Positions 5,306-49,268 of a DNA stretch of 64,000 nt are shown piece after piece. The DNA comes from an uncultured Poribacteria bacterium (GTDB lineage Bacteria > Poribacteria > WGA-4E > WGA-3G), in NCBI GenBank assembly GCA_951813565.1, contig OX638351.1, positions 2,112,001-2,176,000 of the forward strand. Reading direction: 5' to 3'. A program made the translations under genes and the position numbers. Numbering within the stretch: the stretch's first letter is position 1; every line of letters starts with the position of its first letter. The notes under the pieces were generated by a model. That model was given only the letters and a program-made list of their open reading frames with translations. It was not told the DNA's origin and did no database searches.

Positions 5306-5423
5306 GATAGACACCTCCAAGTTTCTGTGTTTATATCAATTTATGAGCAAATTAGTGTGTATTAGATTTATGAAATTATACAAGATTTTTGTCAATAATT
5401 CAAGTAGTTTCTTTTATATTCAG

Positions 5424-5728
5424 TAGACATTCTAATGATTTAATCTGCGTTGTGTTGTCAGAATCGCGGATTATCGCAGATTTATCGGATGACGCGGATT
5501 TTAAGAACTTTGTATCCGCACATTCAACGGACGCATGCACGCCTTCTGTTATTGACCGGACATTATGAAAACGACTTGTTGTTACCAGTATCCAATAATC
5601 CGTGCCATCTGCGTCATCCGATAAATGCGCGATTCAGAAAGTTGCGCGCGATGCCTCATCTGCCCAACGGACAAACATAAGATTTTTCCGCAGACCAATA
5701 ACTCACAATTAAAACGTTATAATGTCTA
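5424..5728. mobile_element. MITE-like cassette (TAGACATT TIR) around an inverted REP-like pair
   Basis: 21-bp TIR tagacattctaatgatttaat / attaaaacgttataatgtcta (3 mismatches); internal tgtcagaatcgcggatt... / ...gcgcgattcagaaa. Confidence 0.7.
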
Positions 5729-5746
5729 ATTTTCATAAGGTTTCGC

Positions 5747-5775
5747 TTGACAAGCCATGTTCAGTTTGGTAAATT
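5747..5775 (+). promoter_or_regulatory. Sigma70-type promoter upstream of the IS605 mini-element and the enolase-superfamily gene
   Basis: TTGACA-17 nt-TAAATT. Confidence 0.6.
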
Positions 5776-5808
5776 TTATCGGTAGAACTTAAAGCGTTAA
5801 AAATTTAG

Positions 5809-6212
5809 CACTCCCTGTCAAACCCCCTGCCTTTAGGTAGGGGATGTAGACAGCTCAGCAGTTTATGTGTCAAAAAAACCTTGACACTTTCACCAAAATT
5901 TGATATATTGTCTTTAGCAGTCGGCATCGGTTCTGATTGATGTGGTGGTAGACCGCTCGGCAGTGAAACAATCAGGTAAAAGCCTTGCGATTCAATACTG
6001 CTAAAGTTCTTTGTAACATCTATTGCACGTTTAGGGTAGACGCATTGAAAAATGCTCACCCGCTTGAAAAATCACGTGTCAAAAATAATAAGTTGCCTTC
6101 GGGCAAGTGGCTGGCTTAGCAGCCACTGTGGAGCAGATGTAAGACGCTTCTTCGGAAACGCTAACTGCTACGAAGCACAAGCCCCTGCCTTTAGGTAGTG
6201 GGTCACTATGAC
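5809..6212 (+). mobile_element. Non-autonomous IS200/IS605 derivative (PATE-like) with no protein gene
   Basis: Both ends nearly identical to the element at 46618-48368; preceded by TTAG, ends in TGAC; guide tetramers AAAC and CAAG at the hairpin feet. Confidence 0.92.
5881..5909 (+). promoter_or_regulatory. Promoter internal to the mini-element
   Basis: TTGACA-17 nt-TATATT with extended -10 TG. Confidence 0.7.
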
Positions 6213-6232
6213 ATAATAGGAGTACCTCCACT
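5912..6232 (+). ncRNA. Putative standalone TnpB omegaRNA with a structured 5' extension; guide from the downstream flank
   Basis: Multiple stems with GAAA and UUCG tetraloops; 3' ~105 nt covary with the right end of the TnpB element at 48258-48368. Confidence 0.7.
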
Positions 6233-7426
6233 TTGAAAATAACAGATGTCAAAACTATTCTGACTGCCCCTGACGGAATTCGGCTTGTTGTTGTTAAGGT
6301 TGAGACGAGTGAACCCGGTTTATACGGGGTGGGATGTGCTACGTTTACACAACGTCCACTTGCCGTTGCAACTGCTGTAGATGAATACCTAAAACCCTTC
6401 TTGATAGGGAAAGACCCTACTAACATAGAAGACATTTTTCAGACAAGTTTTGTCAGTTCGTATTGGCGAAATGGCCCAGTGCTAAATAATGCATTGAGCG
6501 GTGTGGACATTGCGCTGTGGGACATTATGGGCAAACGAGCGAACATGCCTGTTTATCAACTACTCGGAGGCAAGTGTCGTGAGGCAGCAACGCTTTACGG
6601 ACACGCAGGCGGTGGAACTTTTGAAGAGGTAGAAAACAGCGTTCGTAGGTATATGGAACAAGGGTATCGTTATGTGCGCGCGCAAGTTTCAATTCCCGGC
6701 TATTCAACTTATGGGGCAGGCGGTGGAAAGCGGAGTTCTCCTGCTTTTGAACCGACACCTTATGTCAACACGGTCATAAAACTTTTTAATCATCTACGTA
6801 CAAAGTTAGGTGACGAAGTTGAACTTCTGCACGATGTGCATGAACGGATACCACCGATCCAAGCGATTAATCTTGCCAAAGGGTTGGAACCGTATAATCT
6901 CTTTTTCCTTGAAGACCCGTTTGCCCCTGAGGATGTTGACTATTTCCAATTGATGCGCCAACAGACAAGCATTCCGATTGCGATGGGAGAACTGTTTAAC
7001 AATCCAAATGAGTACGTCCATCTTATCAAAGATCGTCTTATCGATTTTATTCGGGTACATATTTCGCAGATTGGTGGTATTAGTCCTGCTCGTAAACTCG
7101 CGGCGTTCTGCGAATTTTTCGGTGTACGCACTGCATGGCACGGACCGGGAGATGTTTCTCCAGTTGGGCATGCGGCGAATGTTGCATTAGATTTGGCATG
7201 TTATAACTTTGGGATTCAGGAACAACACGTCTTCAGAGAAAACACAAAAGAGGTTTTCCCAGGATGTCCAGAAATTAGGGACGGTTGTTTTTGGGCAAAT
7301 GAAGCACCGGGACTCGGCATTGATGTCAACGAAGAACTTGCTGCACGATTCCCGTTCCCAGAACACCCTCTCAACGGTGGCTGGGCACCTGTGCGGCGGA
7401 TGGACGGCACGGTTATTCGTCCTTAG
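6233..7426 (+). CDS. Enolase-superfamily acid-sugar dehydratase (ManD/RspA-like)
   Basis: YWRNGPV, LLHDVHER, FLEDP, AMGELF, WHGPGDVSPVG; TTG start with AGGAG RBS. Confidence 0.9.
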   Translation: MKITDVKTILTAPDGIRLVVVKVETSEPGLYGVGCATFTQRPLAVATAVDEYLKPFLIGKDPTNIEDIFQTSFVSSYWRNGPVLNNALSGVDIALWDIMGKRANMPVYQLLGGKCREAATLYGHAGGGTFEEVENSVRRYMEQGYRYVRAQVSIPGYSTYGAGGGKRSSPAFEPTPYVNTVIKLFNHLRTKLGDEVELLHDVHERIPPIQAINLAKGLEPYNLFFLEDPFAPEDVDYFQLMRQQTSIPIAMGELFNNPNEYVHLIKDRLIDFIRVHISQIGGISPARKLAAFCEFFGVRTAWHGPGDVSPVGHAANVALDLACYNFGIQEQHVFRENTKEVFPGCPEIRDGCFWANEAPGLGIDVNEELAARFPFPEHPLNGGWAPVRRMDGTVIRP

Positions 7427-45172: not shown

Positions 45173-46241
45173 AACACTTCGGCAGTGGTTTGGCACAGCA
45201 CGTTTCACTTACAATAAAACCGTTGCTTTGTTAAACGAAACAGACATAAAAGCGAATTGGAAAGCGATAAAAACAGGTATTCTTCACGATCTTCCTGAAT
45301 GGAGTAAAGAAACACCGTATCAAGTGAAATCTGTTGCTATCCGAGATGCTTGTATAGCTGTCCGAGAAGCAAAGCGAAAATGTAAGAAAACAGGACAATA
45401 TCAATCTGTTTTCTTCAAATCTAAACGTCGTCCATCAGATAGTATTTTCATGCCGAAGTCTTCCATAAAAAAACAAGGTGTTTACCACACCTTGCTGGGA
45501 CACCTCAAAATGTCAGAGACGCTGCCTGAGAATATCTGTGACTCCCGACTGGTAAAAGAGCATGACAAATACTATTTATGTATATCTTATACTGTAACAA
45601 CTCCGAAGCGAAAGCCAAACGGAAGTGTTGTTGCTTTAGACCCAGGCGTGAGAACATTCCTCACATATTTTCATGAGCGTGGTTTCGGATGGCTTGGACA
45701 CCATGCTATTAATCGGATTCAAAGACTTTGTTCACACCTTGATAATCTTTTATCCCGTGCAACTAAAGCAACTCAACAATCACGCAAGAATATGAGACGT
45801 GCTGCGAATAGAATACGCAAACGTATCAGAAATCTTGTTGACGAGTTGCATCATAAAATAGCACGTTTCCTTGTGGATACCTTTGATATTATCCTACTCC
45901 CTACTTTTGAGACTTCAGATATGGTAATGCGTGGAAAACGCAAACTACACAAGAAGTCTGCCCGACAAATGTTGACACTGTCGCACTACAGATTCAAACA
46001 GTTTCTAAAGCACAAAGCGAAAGAGACTGGATGTATCGTCCTTGATGTCTGTGAAGCATACACATCAAAAACAGTGTCGTGGAATGGTGAGATTAGAAAA
46101 TCACTCGGTGGACGAAAGATAATCAAAGATAGTGCCGGACTCAAGATGGACAGAGACTTGAATGGCGCACGCGGGATATTCCTGCGTGCTTTGGTAGATG
46201 AACCCTGGTTACTATCTATGAGTAACTTGCAAACCGTATAA
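44592..46241 (+). CDS. tnpB: IS607-type TnpB RNA-guided nuclease (true start uncertain)
   Basis: KIRVYPT, WFGTARFTYN, ALDPGVRTF, EAYTSKT, DRDLNGARGI; zinc-finger cysteines absent. Confidence 0.92.
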   Translation: MYQRAKQVSCWIIHLTIYGGWQMKERLILSAQKADTDAMMLTDTSKANPNQLQLFAIAEYPAQSKETTLNDKLNICKVSTPKQKLSETSEAVSTSKEKGLEPYWNGLCKVISSKLLLPIGIDSPDSVSTLYDTSLNKTVANSWFSIKQNTVRKRNSRRIFSQSCMSSVAGCTGSEVTVTKSKKIRVYPTTEQRETLRQWFGTARFTYNKTVALLNETDIKANWKAIKTGILHDLPEWSKETPYQVKSVAIRDACIAVREAKRKCKKTGQYQSVFFKSKRRPSDSIFMPKSSIKKQGVYHTLLGHLKMSETLPENICDSRLVKEHDKYYLCISYTVTTPKRKPNGSVVALDPGVRTFLTYFHERGFGWLGHHAINRIQRLCSHLDNLLSRATKATQQSRKNMRRAANRIRKRIRNLVDELHHKIARFLVDTFDIILLPTFETSDMVMRGKRKLHKKSARQMLTLSHYRFKQFLKHKAKETGCIVLDVCEAYTSKTVSWNGEIRKSLGGRKIIKDSAGLKMDRDLNGARGIFLRALVDEPWLLSMSNLQTV

Positions 46242-46289
46242 GATGTGAAATGCCCAGCATTGCACGGAAATATACAGGTTAATATCATC

Positions 46290-46484
46290 GGCCACGGAGG
46301 AGCGACCATGGCAGAAGTCGAGATTCCATGGATTATCAATGGTCCGGGAATCTTACCTGCAAAAGAACTGAATAAATTCGTGAACATCTACGATACAGCA
46401 GCGACGGTTGCACACATTTTCGGTTTGACTCCACCGGACTGTTGGATTGCAAAACCTGTATTGGAGGCGTTTGGTTTACCATAA
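46290..46484 (+). pseudogene. C-terminal fragment of an alkaline-phosphatase-superfamily (phosphodiesterase) gene
   Basis: GHGGATMAEVEIPWIINGPGI...YDTAATVAHIFGL...W starting at the IS607 right end. Confidence 0.72.
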
Positions 46485-46729
46485 TCTTTTTTGATGACCT
46501 AATGACAATTTGCTGTTCACCTATAAACAAACTATTCAAGTGGTAGATCGTGATACCTTATTCACTTAATCTATCTGGTATGATGATCAGTTTCGTCGGT
46601 TTGCACCATTATTTTAGCACTCCCCGTCAAACCCCGTGCCTTTAGGTAGGGGATGTAGACGGCGAAAGGTTTGATTTAAATAAACTTGGCAATCTAATCA
46701 AAATGTGGTATAATATATCATATACTATA

Positions 46730-47167
46730 ATGAAAAGGCAAGATATTATGCCACTAAAAATCGCTAATAAGAAACGTAATTACAAAACAAGCAACAGGAC
46801 AGTCTATAGTTGCCAATATCACGTTATCTGGTGTGTGAAGTATAGGCGTAAGGTTTTAGAGACACAAATACAAGGTAGACTGAAACAACTCATAGAAGAA
46901 AAACAAGACGAGTATGAGTATCAAATCCGTGAGGTTGAAACACAACCTGAACATGTTCACTTGCTCATAGAAATCCCGCCAATGCATTCTATTGATAAAA
47001 TCGTTGGAAAAATCAAAGGCTATACGGCTAAAGTTTTACGTGAAGAATACCCAAGTTTGAAAAGTCGTTTGCCCTCTCTTTGGACACGGAGCAAGTTTGT
47101 GAGTTCCTGTGGTGGTGTAACACTCAAAGTGATAAAAGACTATATTGAAGGTCAAAGCGGACAATGA
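46730..47167 (+). CDS. tnpA: IS200/IS605 HUH (Y1) transposase
   Basis: YHVIWCVKYRRKVL, EHVHLL (HUH), LWTRS, YIEGQ catalytic Tyr; start 46730 or 46748. Confidence 0.95.
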   Translation: MKRQDIMPLKIANKKRNYKTSNRTVYSCQYHVIWCVKYRRKVLETQIQGRLKQLIEEKQDEYEYQIREVETQPEHVHLLIEIPPMHSIDKIVGKIKGYTAKVLREEYPSLKSRLPSLWTRSKFVSSCGGVTLKVIKDYIEGQSGQ

Positions 47168-48276
47168 GAAAAGCGGACAAGTTCAAACTTCAAAACCAAT
47201 CTAACACAATCAAACTCGGCAATATGCTTGATGATATGTGGGAAATCCATGTGCATATCATGCGTTTGGAGCGTAGGTATTATCGCATGTTCGGCAAAAA
47301 TTTGTCTGCGTATCGTCTGAAGGCACATGTTGCGAAACTCAAAAAAACAACTAAACCACACTGGGCGGACTTGCCGAGTCAAGTTGTTCAAGACGTTGTG
47401 CTGCGTTATGGTAAATCTCAAGACGCTTTCTTTGAGAATATCGAAGACCGAAAAGCGGGCAAAACAACGCGTAAAGTGGGTAGACCGAAAATCAAACCGA
47501 GACACAAATACAACTCCATGACCTTCACACAAGCGGGCTACAAACTTGAAGAGAACCGTATCAAAATCAACTGTATAGATACATGGTTTTCCTTTCACAA
47601 ACACCGTGAAATCAAAGGTGTCATCAAGACGATCACAATCAAACGTGACAGGTGCGGTGACTATTGGATATGCTTTTCGTGCGAGAATGTTGAGGATTCC
47701 GAACCCAAACCCAAGACAGGTAAGAGCGCAGGATTTGATTACGGAAACAAAACATTCCTCACAAGCGACGAAGGTGACACAATAGAATCCCCGCAGTTTT
47801 TCAAACAATCACTCAACACGTTGCGAGCTCTCAACAAAGCACTCAGTCGTAAAGTCAAAGGTTCTAACAACTATTATCGTGCGTGCCGTGCTTTGGCAAG
47901 ACAACACAGAAAAGTTGCCAGACAAAGAGAAGATTGGCAGTGGAAACTTGCTACCCAACTTTGCACGGAGTTTGATACACTCTACTTTGAAACTTTGAAC
48001 CTTGATGGTATGAAACGGCTTTGGGGACGCAAAGTCTCTGACCACGCCTTCTACCATTTCGGACAGATACTGGAACAGAAGTGTGTGAAGCACGGTAAAA
48101 AACTTGTCCAAATCAGTCAATGGACAGCAACGATAAAACCTTGCAGTGATTGTGGATACCATAACGAAGAACTCTCTCTCGCAGATAGACAGTGGACATG
48201 CCCCGAATGTGGCTCACACCACGACCGAGACATCAACGCTGCTATCAATATCAAACGGGCAGGCTTGGCTGCCTAA
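47164..48276 (+). CDS. tnpB: TnpB RNA-guided endonuclease
   Basis: RuvC D (GFDYG), E (FETLN), D (DRDINAA); CSDC/CPEC zinc finger. Confidence 0.95.
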   Translation: MRKADKFKLQNQSNTIKLGNMLDDMWEIHVHIMRLERRYYRMFGKNLSAYRLKAHVAKLKKTTKPHWADLPSQVVQDVVLRYGKSQDAFFENIEDRKAGKTTRKVGRPKIKPRHKYNSMTFTQAGYKLEENRIKINCIDTWFSFHKHREIKGVIKTITIKRDRCGDYWICFSCENVEDSEPKPKTGKSAGFDYGNKTFLTSDEGDTIESPQFFKQSLNTLRALNKALSRKVKGSNNYYRACRALARQHRKVARQREDWQWKLATQLCTEFDTLYFETLNLDGMKRLWGRKVSDHAFYHFGQILEQKCVKHGKKLVQISQWTATIKPCSDCGYHNEELSLADRQWTCPECGSHHDRDINAAINIKRAGLAA

Positions 48277-48388
48277 AGTGGAGCGACACTAAGACGGTCA
48301 ACTCTCTGAGAAAACCGCAGTCGCAAGGAAGCACAAGCCCCTACCTTTAGGTAGTGGGTACCTATGACGTAACACTCTCTCTAAATAC
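48255..48388 (+). ncRNA. 3' part of the TnpB omegaRNA (right end plus flanking guide)
   Basis: Position at the tnpB 3' end; stems ggcag/ctgcc, gcgac/gtcgc and the end hairpin; 5' boundary unknown. Confidence 0.7.
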
Positions 48389-48425
48389 TATTCATTATAA
48401 CTGATAATATCATGAGGAGATTATT

Positions 48426-49268
48426 ATGATATACAGGACAATAAAATCAATTACAAAGGCGATCCTTGTAATCGCTTTATGTTTTACAACACTACCAATT
48501 TTGGGGGCTGAAACAGTAATTTTTGAAGAAGATTTTGAGGCAGTGAAACTTGAAGATAGCATAGAGGAAGGGGTAAAAGGCGTTAAAGTTTGGTCAGGTA
48601 TACCACCTGAAGGTTGGGAAATTACAAACGAAAATCCTAAAGACCTCGGCATGCCCGAATGGCGAACGTGGGCAATTGTTGACCTTGAGTGGTGGAGACA
48701 AACTGCTGGTGACCAAGAACGCAGTCAGTTCACTACGAAACAGAAGGACGGTAAAGGTATAGGGAATGGCGCGGTTTCAGACCCAGATGAGTGGGACGAT
48801 TGGGAAGTAAACGGTGACCCCGACGGTAAAAGTGCCTGGAACGGTCACTTAATTACGCCCTCTATTAAAATCAAAGGTGCAGCTGCGGAATCACTTGTTT
48901 TAACATTTGATTCCAGTTGGCGCCCTGATGACCCCCAAAGAGGTGAGATAACAGTAAGTTTTGACGGCGGTAAGGAAGAGCAAATTTTATTATTTGAGAG
49001 TTCTGGTGCACAGACCCTTGTTACCATTCCTACTCTAAGGAAAAATGAGGAAAAAGTAAACGATTTAGAACAGGTAAACGAAACTTTAGAAATCCCGATT
49101 GACAATCCTGCGGATGCCACTGAAATTGTTATTAGTTTCGGTCTCCTTAATGCCCGGAATGATTGGTGGTGGGCGATAGATAACATCAAACTCATAAGCA
49201 CTGCATTTGATGTAGAACCGAGAGATAAATTAGCAGTGAAATGGGCAGAAATAAAACGCTTAAAATAA
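48426..49268 (+). CDS. Secreted beta-sandwich protein with conserved C-terminal motif
   Basis: Signal peptide, IFEEDFE, NDWWWAIDNI, ends VEPRDKLAVKWAEIKRLK. Confidence 0.8.
   Translation: MIYRTIKSITKAILVIALCFTTLPILGAETVIFEEDFEAVKLEDSIEEGVKGVKVWSGIPPEGWEITNENPKDLGMPEWRTWAIVDLEWWRQTAGDQERSQFTTKQKDGKGIGNGAVSDPDEWDDWEVNGDPDGKSAWNGHLITPSIKIKGAAAESLVLTFDSSWRPDDPQRGEITVSFDGGKEEQILLFESSGAQTLVTIPTLRKNEEKVNDLEQVNETLEIPIDNPADATEIVISFGLLNARNDWWWAIDNIKLISTAFDVEPRDKLAVKWAEIKRLK

What the first reader, a model, noticed from the sequence alone, without database searches (positions are those of the whole stretch)
5809..6232. Protein-free IS605 mini-element that looks like a promoter-driven standalone omegaRNA gene with an extra structured 5' domain
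Seen: both ends match the autonomous element at 46618-48368, with compensatory changes (left end ctgtc/gacag vs ccgtc/gacgg; right end gtggctg/cagccac vs ggcag/ctgcc and gcag/ctgc vs gcgac/gtcgc). The interior has TTGACA-17-TATATT (5881-5909). It is followed by ~190 nt with no visible similarity to tnpA or tnpB but dense pairing: ctttagcagt/actgctaaag (5912-21/5997-6006), ctgattg/caatcag, gggt..gcatt-GAAA-aatgc..accc, and ttgcc-TTCG-ggcaa; a further cTTCGg loop lies in the scaffold part. Established: TnpB guide RNAs derive from the right end plus flank, and non-autonomous PATEs can supply omegaRNA in trans. Inference: an RNA-only parasite that borrows TnpA and TnpB, where the stable tetraloops indicate selection on a larger RNA of unknown function.
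Basis: partly seen in the sequence, partly recalled or inferred. Interest (0 to 1): 0.88.

Follow-up and report, generated by a model that had tools for sequence, protein, structure and literature searches.

The report
Gene-less transposon carrying a guide-RNA gene
This 404-base stretch is a protein-free jumping element that seems to make a guide RNA for a nuclease encoded elsewhere in the genome; such elements are known, but this family adds a large, conserved, undescribed folded RNA domain in front of the guide.

Summary
Window 5809-6212 is a real, recently mobile, protein-free IS200/IS605 mini-element. The genome holds 5 identical copies, each directly after TTAG. Two related genomes have the exact empty site, TTAG|ATAATAGG, with no target duplication.

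The element has four parts:
- An IS605 left end.
- The left-end promoter, TTGACA-17-TATATT.
- A ~185-nt RNA module (5912-6097).
- A ~105-nt TnpB omegaRNA scaffold, homologous to the 3' ends of resident tnpB elements.

The module is strongly supported by covariation. Across 54 distinct copies from about 40 genomes, 96% of cells are paired and 34 of 41 pairs show compensatory changes. It includes a pseudoknot.

The module is non-coding and unrelated to tnpB. It matches no Rfam family and was not found in tnpB-bearing elements. I found it only in Poribacteria. It is joined to at least three transposon end types, and its sequence clusters by host genus rather than by end type.

Best reading: a trans-acting guide-RNA gene whose 5' module is a swappable accessory domain, probably for stability or loading. 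Transcription, TnpB binding and the module's function remain unshown. Stand-alone omegaRNA elements are published, so I class this as a new variant of a known kind.

The parts
5805..5808 (+). TTAG target / transposon-adjacent motif directly 5' of the element
   Evidence: All 5 identical copies follow TTAG. The empty sites in G050 and G036 read ...TTAG|ATAATAGG. The autonomous element at 46618 also follows TTAG.
5809..5854 (+). Left end (LE) with subterminal hairpin CCCCCTGCC-TTTA-GGTAGGGG inside an outer stem CTGTC/GACAG
   Evidence: It is 93-96% identical over positions 1-46 to the left ends of the resident tnpB elements. It aligns with the autonomous left end, with a compensatory change in the outer stem.
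5881..5909 (+). Sigma-70-type promoter TTGACA-17-TATATT with TG extension; predicted start near 5915-5917
   Evidence: Best site in the region, 11 of 12 matches. It aligns with the left-end promoter (TTGGCA-17-TATAAT) of the autonomous element. 39 of 53 family members score at least 9 of 12, with the -10 ending 6-8 nt before the first helix; the random control gave 3.35%.
5912..6017 (+). 5' module, domain 1. P1 5917-5920/5985-5988; P1b 5923-5925/5982-5984; P2 5932-5939/5969-5976; P3 5942-5946/5952-5956; pseudoknot 5959-5963/5998-6002; small hairpin P4 6006-6008/6015-6017
   Evidence: RNAalifold and pair counts on a MAFFT alignment of 23 sequences and on 54 distinct copies. All 5 pseudoknot pairs show compensatory changes, and the pseudoknot was not part of the covariance model.
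6018..6097 (+). 5' module, domain 2. P5 6025-6030/6074-6079; P6 6034-6037/6058-6061; P6b 6042-6044/6053-6055. This is followed by an A-rich linker.
   Evidence: Helices 7-9 are 91-99% paired, and 12 of their 13 pairs show compensatory changes. The covariance-model match spans 5912-6097.
6093..6106 (+). Hairpin TTGCC-TTCG-GGCAA between module and scaffold
   Evidence: It is present in the sequence. Homologues carry GCAC-TTCG-GTGC or GATAC-TTCG-GTATC at the same place, seen by eye. On the minus strand it scores as a terminator-like site.
6107..6212 (+). TnpB omegaRNA-type scaffold and right end (RE). It contains hairpin GTGGCTG-GCTTAG-CAGCCAC, the long-range stem GCAG/CTGC, the cUUCGg hairpin and the RE hairpin CCCCTGCC-TTTA-GGTAGTGGG, and ends in CTATGAC.
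   Evidence: It is homologous to the region from the tnpB stop codon to the right end in resident tnpB elements. In the alignment of 23 mini and 12 other right ends, RNAalifold predicts 21 pairs, 11 with compensatory changes.
6213..6232 (+). Flanking DNA that would be read as the guide (ATAATAGGAGTACCTCCACT)
   Evidence: The element boundary at 6212/6213 is fixed by the 5 copies and by the empty sites. The guide role is inferred from the position of guides in TnpB omegaRNAs (passages).
46618..48368 (+). Autonomous IS605 relative: tnpA (46748-47167, Y1 transposase) and tnpB (47164-48276)
   Evidence: Pfam gives Y1_Tnp at 2.7e-40 and OrfB_IS605 plus Cas12f1-like_TNB. The genome holds about 26 full-length tnpB of this family and 5 tnpA loci. 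The module is not present in it: with filters off, the best covariance-model score is 4 bits.

Best explanation
Window 5809-6212 is one copy of a 404-bp protein-free IS200/IS605 mini-element of the PATE type, in a sponge-associated Poribacteria genome. A Y1 TnpA made by a co-resident IS605 moves it: it is cut out and pasted 3' of TTAG without target duplication.

The element keeps the left-end promoter. That promoter should start a non-coding RNA of about 300 nt near position 5916. The RNA would have three parts:
1. A ~185-nt pseudoknotted 5' module.
2. A ~105-nt TnpB omegaRNA scaffold.
3. A guide copied from the flank, from 6213 onward.

Loaded in trans onto a resident TnpB, this RNA would direct cleavage of the element's own empty site (TTAG + ATAATAGGAGTACC...). 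Recombination from a filled copy would then restore the element. On this reading the mini is a guide-RNA-only parasite of both TnpA and TnpB.

The 5' module is an accessory RNA domain specific to such minis and exchangeable between them. Its most likely role is in cis, raising the yield of usable guide RNA. It could do this by protecting the 5' end and the untranslated transcript from decay or premature termination, or by helping folding or loading.

Shown here: the element's anatomy, its mobility, the structure of module and scaffold, and the module's distribution. Inferred: transcription, TnpB loading, homing, and the module's role.
For: Mobility and boundaries:
- 5 identical copies, each after TTAG, each with a different flank.
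- Exact empty sites in 2 congeneric genomes.

Helpers in the genome:
- About 26 full-length tnpB of the window's family, other TnpB families, and 5 tnpA loci.

Promoter:
- 11 of 12 matches with a TG extension.
- Homologous to the autonomous left-end promoter.
- Kept at a fixed distance in 39 of 53 copies, against 3.35% of random 45-mers.

Scaffold:
- Aligns from the tnpB stop codon to the right end of resident elements.
- 21 predicted pairs, 11 compensatory, across 35 mini and other right ends.

Module structure:
- On the unfitted MAFFT alignment of 23 sequences: 42 pairs, 96.1% of cells paired, 26 pairs compensatory. Slid controls gave 29-43% paired and 5-10 compensatory pairs. 0 of 500 shuffles reached the observed value.
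- On 54 distinct copies: 41 pairs, 96.0% paired, 34 compensatory, against 8-14 in slid controls.
- Frequent G-U pairs fix the + strand as the RNA strand.

Module is non-coding:
- No codon periodicity: 636/619/653 differences at codon positions 1/2/3.
- Only 7 of 52 copies have an antisense frame open through the whole module.

Module is specific to minis:
- Only 6 matches in the own genome, all in minis.
- Nothing in the autonomous element with filters off.
- The right end lies 113-189 nt after the module in 49 of 54 copies.

Module is modular:
- It is joined to right-end types A (29 copies), B (12) and C (8).
- Domain-1 identity follows host genus, not end type: g1A-g1B 0.78 against g1A-g5A 0.67.

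Published support:
- Stand-alone omegaRNAs work in trans (passages in PMC10691335).
- PATEs often encode omegaRNAs (Meers et al. preprint, passages).
- In ISDra2 the 116-nt scaffold suffices, and the 5' region is processed off and dispensable for cleavage (PMC10097598, passages). This fits a 5' module that acts before or at loading.
Against: - No transcript start, end or strand is shown. The 4 RNA-library runs come from one study. They hold the element only as contigs, embedded in other flanks, which could be DNA carry-over or read-through.
- No test of TnpB binding was possible.
- The partner TnpB is ambiguous. The left end and TTAG match family B1. The scaffold sequence is closest to family B2 (79-81%), whose own left end follows TCATCAA.
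- A simple stabiliser would not need ~185 nt with invariant unpaired stretches (UCGGCAU-GGUU, GAUG, GUAAAAGC). These point to a specific ligand, protein or tertiary fold.
- 14 of 53 copies lack the sigma-70-type match and carry another conserved upstream motif instead.
- A second mini family in the same genome, with 8 copies, spreads without the module.
- In the own-genome model search only 150 of 1410 first-look candidates were scored.
Confidence: 0.68

Rival explanations
1. The module is an independent cargo RNA, such as a regulatory sRNA, a ligand-sensing RNA or a small ribozyme. It merely rides in IS605 minis. The right-end scaffold is kept only because TnpA needs the right end, and the RNA's function has nothing to do with TnpB.
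For: - The module has invariant unpaired junctions and a pseudoknot, like aptamers or ribozymes.
- It moves between end types.
- It is absent from tnpB elements.
- One copy (L102) has domain 1 with a promoter but no recognisable scaffold or ends.
Against: - In 49 of 54 copies it lies in one orientation, 113-189 nt upstream of a right end, always 5' of a scaffold that extends well beyond the TnpA hairpin.
- The scaffold part upstream of the right-end hairpin also covaries in minis. TnpA recognition does not explain that.
- It matches no known ribozyme or riboswitch family.
- No copy without IS context was found other than the single L102.
Confidence: 0.15
2. The selected function is that of a mobile outward-reading promoter or leader. 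The element supplies transcription, and a structured leader, to the gene downstream of its right end.
For: - The strong promoter points towards the right end, with no + strand terminator inside the element.
- The window copy sits 20 nt before the start codon of the 6233-7426 enolase-family gene, separating it from a promoter-like site at 5747-5775.
- 4 of 6 copies in this genome have a co-oriented ORF within about 230 nt downstream.
Against: - The sample is small and has no orientation control.
- The idea does not explain a conserved 185-nt pseudoknotted module, or covariation in the omegaRNA scaffold.
- The downstream genes differ between copies.
Confidence: 0.07
3. The paired regions act as single-stranded DNA structures during TnpA peel-and-paste transposition, not as RNA.
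For: IS200/IS605 transposition uses ssDNA hairpins at both ends (established knowledge of the family; Meers et al. passages).
Against: - Many conserved pairs are G-U on the + strand. Examples: U-G in 54 of 54 copies at columns 21/81, and G-U in 37 copies at columns 185/262. In DNA these would be weak, and they would be mismatches on the other strand.
- A promoter is kept at a fixed distance before the first helix.
- tnpB elements transpose without this module.
Confidence: 0.03
4. The interior is a decaying remnant of tnpB, or of other sequence, with no function of its own.
For: Many PATEs arise by internal deletion. MAFFT can force a weak alignment of 6040-6100 to the tnpB 3' end.
Against: - No significant blastx match to 11 TnpB variants.
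- No covariance-model match in the autonomous element.
- 34 of 41 pairs are compensatory across 54 copies in two genera.
- Domain 1 is the best-conserved part of the element.
Confidence: 0.02

Closest known systems
Stand-alone (effector-less) omegaRNAs and omegaRNA-encoding PATEs of IS200/IS605. Sources: Altae-Tran et al. 2021, as summarised in PMC10691335 (passages read); Meers et al. preprint 10.1101/2023.03.14.532601 (passages read).
   Same: - Protein-free element with IS200/IS605 ends.
- Mobilised in trans.
- omegaRNA scaffold at the right end, with the guide taken from the flank.
- Presumed use by a TnpB encoded elsewhere in the same genome.
   Different: - This family places the left-end promoter directly before a ~185-nt covarying, pseudoknotted module.
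- The module is neither tnpB-derived nor part of the scaffold shared with tnpB elements.
- The same module is joined to at least three end and scaffold types.
- I found no description of such a 5' domain in the passages read or in the searches.
ISDra2 TnpB omegaRNA (Nakagawa et al. 2023, PMC10097598; passages read)
   Same: A core scaffold of about 105-116 nt lies next to a 3' guide, preceded by a further 5' region of more than 100 nt.
   Different: - In ISDra2 the 5' region (-231 to -117) is tnpB coding sequence. It is disordered in the complex, processed off, and dispensable for cleavage.
- Here the 5' region is non-coding, highly structured and under strong structural selection.
- Whether the ISDra2-type core pseudoknot exists in this scaffold was not tested.
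IStrons: IS605-family elements carrying a group I intron besides the guide RNA (preprint 10.1101/2023.11.20.567912; search listing and start of abstract only)
   Same: An IS605-family element combines the TnpB guide RNA with a second structured RNA.
   Different: - No group I intron or any other Rfam family matches here.
- The module is only ~185 nt.
- The element has no tnpB.
- The details of IStron anatomy are recalled, not read.
Second protein-free mini family of the same genome ('mini-2', 407-422 bp, 8 copies, e.g. G000:C1:4985928-4986334)
   Same: It has the same left- and right-end type, a TTTAG target, no protein gene, and the B1-type omegaRNA scaffold.
   Different: Its interior is unrelated to the module, and I saw no sigma-70 consensus promoter by eye. 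It shows that the module is not needed for transposition.

Membership tests
Non-autonomous IS200/IS605 element (PATE type) | Subterminal imperfect palindromes at the left and right ends, related to those of an autonomous IS200/IS605 | tested here: met
   The left end is 93-96% identical to the left ends of resident tnpB elements. The right-end hairpin aligns with theirs.
Non-autonomous IS200/IS605 element (PATE type) | Insertion 3' of a short specific motif, without target-site duplication | tested here: met
   5 of 5 copies follow TTAG. The empty sites in G050 and G036 read TTAG|ATAATAGG and lack exactly 5809-6212.
Non-autonomous IS200/IS605 element (PATE type) | No protein-coding gene | tested here: met
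   - No Pfam hit for the 44-, 48- and 84-aa ORFs.
- No blastx hit to TnpB.
- No codon periodicity, and the antisense frame is open through the module in only 7 of 52 copies.
Non-autonomous IS200/IS605 element (PATE type) | A Y1 TnpA available in trans in the same genome | tested here: met
   Y1_Tnp at window 46748-47164. tblastn finds 5 tnpA loci. That this TnpA actually moves the mini is inferred.
TnpB omegaRNA | Scaffold spans the transposon right end and corresponds to the region overlapping or following the 3' end of tnpB | tested here: met
   6107-6212 aligns from the tnpB stop codon to the right end of B1 and B2 elements. The structure is shared, with 11 of 21 pairs compensatory.
TnpB omegaRNA | A ~16-nt guide at the 3' end, transcribed from the DNA flanking the right end | tested here: inconclusive
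   The DNA arrangement fits: the promoter points to the right end, there is no + strand terminator inside, and the boundary is fixed. No reads show a transcript crossing 6212/6213, because only contigs were available.
TnpB omegaRNA | Binds a TnpB and guides TAM-dependent DNA cleavage | not testable with these tools
   This needs RIP and interference assays. Candidate partners are B1 (47164-48276 and about 25 paralogues) and B2 (4 loci).
TnpB omegaRNA | Core pseudoknot between the last scaffold bases and the 5' part of the core, as in ISDra2 | not tested
   RNAalifold cannot predict pseudoknots. A by-eye look gave no consistent pairing.
Any curated RNA family (Rfam 15: riboswitches, ribozymes, group I/II introns, HEARO and others) | Covariance-model match | tested here: not met
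   0 matches at gathering score in the whole window. In 5750-6300 at E up to 10, the only hit was a chance CRISPR-DR31 match at E 4.3.

The most novel reading that the evidence does not exclude
The 5' module is a new class of functional RNA that belongs to guide-RNA-only transposons. It would be a specific protein-binding, ligand-binding or catalytic domain, in effect an 'accessory gene' made of RNA. It would let protein-free minis out-compete the cis-encoded guides of tnpB elements for TnpB, or would time guide production. It has been passed by recombination between at least three omegaRNA lineages within Poribacteria.
Probability: 0.25. Interest if true: 0.8.

Novelty: new variant of a known kind. 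Interest (0 to 1): 0.6.

Why it matters
Protein-free elements that carry only a TnpB guide RNA are known, but they are treated as simple deletion derivatives.

Here a guide-only element has gained something instead of only losing genes. It carries a large, strongly covarying, pseudoknotted RNA domain that is absent from the nuclease-encoding relatives and is shared among several guide types. If the domain raises guide-RNA yield or loading, two things follow:
- RNA-only parasites of the TnpA/TnpB system would be shown to evolve their own adaptations.
- The domain could serve as a portable 5' add-on for TnpB-based genome editing.

It is also a well-supported candidate for a new RNA family: 54 distinct members and 34 covarying pairs, from uncultured sponge symbionts.

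Tried and rejected
- Rfam. No match at gathering score in the whole window. In the region in E-value mode, only a chance CRISPR-DR31 hit.
Rejected by pair counts.
- Interior as decayed tnpB. Rejected by blastx against 11 TnpB variants and by the covariance model with filters off on 46000-49000.
- Antisense 84-aa ORF (5805-6059, minus strand). A similar ORF appears in several same-genus copies. It is rejected as coding: no codon periodicity, and open through the module in only 7 of 52 copies.
- Plasmid collection search with the autonomous element. Only short tnpB matches, uninformative.
- RNA evidence. Four RNA-library runs of one study hold the element as contigs at 0-2 differences, in other flanks. 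Contigs give no strand, ends or level. The window's own flanks had no cover because those samples carry other insertion sites, so transcription is neither shown nor excluded.
- Wider distribution. Of the 80 loci fetched, the model matched 34 of 34 titled Poribacteria and 0 of 46 others.
- Stricter pattern. 0 hits in viral contigs. 2 hits in metagenome contigs, both model-positive; one was read and is a type-C mini.
- Strict regex for right ends. Found nothing and was replaced by BLAST.
- Earlier scan notes. Nothing by sequence or near the window.
- Literature. The searches, and the look-up in PMC12558985, gave nothing on a 5' domain of stand-alone omegaRNAs. None of the 12 papers listed (of 622 hits) mentions Poribacteria.
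Full report
**What is in the sequence**

Directly after TTAG (5805-5808) comes a left end, CACTCCCTGTC...GACAGC (5809-5854). It aligns with the left end of the tnpA-tnpB element at 46618. The last ~105 nt align with that element's right end.

The promoter-like site TTGACA(5881-5886)-17-TATATT(5904-5909) is the best in 5400-6500, with 11 of 12 matches and a TG extension. It aligns with the TTGGCA-17-TATAAT site in the autonomous left end, upstream of tnpA. So it is the transposon's own left-end promoter that has been retained.

**It is a mobile element, and its limits are 5809-6212**

The window's genome (5.43 Mb, one contig) holds 5 copies that are 100% identical over 404 bp. Each follows TTAG and each has a different 3' flank. 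There is also one 73%-identical relative.

Two genomes of the same genus carry the orthologous locus without the element. They read ...AAAAATTTAG|ATAATAGGAGTACC..., lacking exactly 5809-6212 and showing no target duplication. This is the IS200/IS605 insertion signature. Positions 6213-6232 of the reported interval are therefore flank, not element.

The helpers are present in the genome:
- The element at 46618-48368 encodes a Y1 transposase and a TnpB (OrfB_IS605 plus the TNB domain).
- tblastn finds about 26 full-length tnpB of this family (88-100% amino-acid identity), several more distant TnpB families, and 5 tnpA loci.

**The right part is a TnpB guide-RNA scaffold**

Positions 6107-6212 align with the stretch from the tnpB stop codon to the right end in the resident elements. 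I aligned 35 right ends: 23 from minis, 8 from tnpB-linked elements of this genome, and 4 of unchecked context from the sister genus. On this alignment RNAalifold predicts 21 pairs, 11 of them with compensatory changes. These include the long-range stem GCAG/CTGC, which appears elsewhere as GCGAC/GTCGC and GACGG/CUGUC.

In sequence, the mini's scaffold is closest to a second TnpB family, B2. That family is 51% identical in protein to the window's TnpB, and its right end is 79-81% identical to the mini's. The mini's left end, its TTAG motif and its terminal right-end hairpin are instead of the window's B1 type. Which TnpB would use this RNA therefore stays open.

**The 5' domain is a real, conserved, pseudoknotted RNA**

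A DNA search in 101 genomes of the family found homologues at 69-91% identity in two genera.

On a MAFFT alignment of 23 module sequences, RNAalifold predicted 30 pairs, 20 of them with compensatory changes. By eye I added a pseudoknot and helix P5. Pair counts for the full 42-pair structure:

| Measure | Observed | Controls |
|---|---|---|
| Cells paired | 96.1% | shuffle mean 81.3%; slid partners 29-43% |
| Pairs with changes on both sides | 26 | slid partners 5-10 |
| Shuffles reaching the observed value | 0 of 500 | |

A covariance model without the pseudoknot collected 70 matches from held loci, 54 of them distinct, from about 40 genomes. On these:
- 41 pairs were 96.0% paired.
- 34 pairs were compensatory, against 8-14 in slid controls.
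- All 5 pseudoknot pairs covary. Examples are GCAG/CUGC, GUCG/CGAC, CCAA/UUGG, AUAU/AUAU and ACAAG/CUUGU.

That second alignment is fitted to the model, which biases the nested helices. The unfitted alignment gives the same picture, and the pseudoknot was never part of the model.

It is 71.7% paired against 72.1% in shuffles, with 1 compensatory pair of 10. ACUGCU (5997-6002) pairs instead with the internal GGCAG(U) (5959-5964).

Frequent conserved G-U pairs mark the + strand as the RNA strand.

**It is not protein-coding and not decayed tnpB**

- The three small ORFs have no Pfam match.
- blastx of the mini against 11 TnpB variants of the genome gives nothing better than E 0.82, on the wrong strand.
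- An antisense ORF of 63-84 aa recurs in several same-genus copies. Differences are spread evenly over its codon positions (636/619/653), and only 7 of 52 copies keep an antisense frame open through the module.
- No Rfam family matches.

**Where the module occurs**

In its own genome the model finds only the six mini copies, at E up to 1. In that search, 150 of 1410 first-look candidates were scored. With filters off it finds nothing in the autonomous element, with a best score of 4 bits.

Across 151 genomes of the order, 50 have it. All are in two genera of one family: g1 18 of 37 and g5 31 of 60. It was not found in the 47 genomes searched from the three other families.

Of the 80 loci fetched, the model matched all 34 titled Poribacteria and none of the 46 others. 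A stricter pattern found nothing in viral contigs and two matches in metagenome contigs. Both are model-positive, and one was read and is a type-C mini.

Of the 54 distinct copies, 49 have a recognisable right end 113-189 nt after the module, so no gene lies between:
- Type A (...CTATGAC, as here): 29 copies.
- Type B (...GTATGTCA): 12 copies.
- Type C (...GGTCTATCAC): 8 copies.
- Unknown: 5 copies. Three are cut by contig ends, one is decayed, and one (L102) has domain 1 and a promoter but no scaffold.

No TnpB or TnpA lies within 1.5 kb of 16 divergent copies that I checked.

Domain-1 identity follows the host genus rather than the end type: g1A-g1B 0.78 against g1A-g5A 0.67, and g5A-g5B 0.80 against g1B-g5B 0.68. 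Several type-B copies have a type-A copy of the same genus as their nearest neighbour. This suggests exchange of the module between mini lineages. The copies are related to each other and the sample is modest, so this is an indication, not a test.

**Promoter across the family**

In 39 of 53 copies with enough upstream sequence, the best TTGACA-N16-18-TATAAT match scores at least 9 of 12. The -10 ends 6-8 nt before the first helix. Only 3.35% of random 45-mers from the same loci score as high. The other 14 copies share a different motif, TAAAC(C)-N17-TCTAAA, at the same place. The RNA should therefore begin within a few bases of helix P1, near 5915-5917 in the window.

**Expression**

Four RNA-library runs from one study contain the element as contigs, with 0-2 differences, joined to flanks other than the window's. 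Contigs cannot show strand, ends or level, and DNA carry-over is possible. This is compatible with expression but is not evidence for it.

**How it most likely works**

Shown here:
- A protein-free IS200/IS605 element that transposed recently.
- A retained left-end promoter.
- A mini-specific structured RNA module.
- A TnpB-type scaffold ending at the transposon boundary.
- An empty-site sequence, TTAG + flank, that is exactly what such a guide would target.

Established elsewhere (passages read):
- omegaRNAs consist of a scaffold spanning the right end and a ~16-nt guide from the flank.
- Stand-alone omegaRNAs work in trans.
- PATEs often encode omegaRNAs.
- TnpB cleavage of the vacated site promotes transposon retention.
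- In ISDra2 a 116-nt scaffold suffices, and the 5' region is processed off and dispensable for cleavage.

Inferred: the mini is transcribed from about 5916 through the right end. The RNA is loaded onto a resident TnpB and protects the mini against loss after TnpA excision.

The module occupies the place that tnpB coding sequence has in ordinary omegaRNA precursors. It most likely acts in cis on yield, through 5'-end protection, resistance of an untranslated RNA to decay or termination, folding, or loading. Its invariant unpaired stretches and pseudoknot leave room for a more specific role, such as a protein partner, a ligand or catalysis.

A second mini family in the same genome has 8 copies at 91-100% identity, the same ends, and a different interior without the module. 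This shows the module is not needed for transposition.

**Comparison and novelty**

The kind of element is published: stand-alone, trans-acting omegaRNAs in PATE-like elements. Earlier notes of this scan list similar promoter-plus-omegaRNA minis in other genomes, two of them with undescribed 5' RNA pieces. I did not check those notes.

What is new here:
- A large, very well supported 5' RNA domain confined to protein-free minis.
- The same domain shared by at least three end and scaffold types.
- A distribution restricted to Poribacteria in the collections searched.

I found no description of it in the papers and searches listed. Supplementary files were not consulted and could bear on that claim. 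I rate this a new variant of a known kind, of moderate to good interest, with the module's function as the open question.

Noticed in passing
window 5424-5729: A separate ~305-bp repeat lies just upstream of the mini. Its terminal inverted repeats are TAGACATTATAA...TTATAATGTCTA. The genome holds 3 further copies at 99% (C1:2742376, 2005568, 58350). The repeat is absent from the orthologous site in G050. It looks like an unrelated MITE.
   Followed up: partly
G000:C1:4985928-4986334, 365561-365967 and 6 more loci (outside the window): A second protein-free mini family of 407-422 bp has 8 copies at 91-100% identity. It has the same B1-type ends and omegaRNA scaffold, but a different ~240-nt interior that matches neither the module nor TnpB by blastx. 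It may carry another RNA.
   Followed up: partly
window 5747-5775 and 6233-7426: The mini sits between a promoter-like site (TTGACA-17-TAAATT) and the ribosome-binding site and start of an enolase-superfamily (MR_MLE) gene, 20 nt before its start codon. The element's own promoter may now drive that gene. 4 of 6 copies in the genome have a co-oriented ORF within about 230 nt downstream.
   Followed up: partly
L036, L038, L041 (G014, G080, G052): Some module-plus-scaffold copies have a right end but no recognisable left-end hairpin upstream. TnpA could not excise these, so they would be fixed guide-RNA loci. They may be decayed or domesticated.
   Followed up: no
L102 (G057:C66:197254-197423): Domain 1 of the module has its own promoter-like site but no domain 2, scaffold or transposon ends. 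It is followed by an unrelated hairpin. This is either a truncated copy or a stand-alone form.
   Followed up: no
14 of 53 module copies, e.g. L047, L049, L105: Instead of a sigma-70-type promoter, these copies share the upstream motif TAAAC(C)-N17-TCTAAA at the same distance from the RNA. It may be a different promoter class.
   Followed up: no
whole genome G000: About 26 full-length tnpB of one family stand against only 5 tnpA loci. Most elements are 1364-1365-bp tnpB-only derivatives that keep the left-end promoter.
   Followed up: partly
window 6093-6106, minus strand: The TTGCC-TTCG-GGCAA hairpin is followed on the minus strand by a T-rich run and scores as a terminator-like site. It could stop antisense transcription entering from the right.
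   Followed up: no
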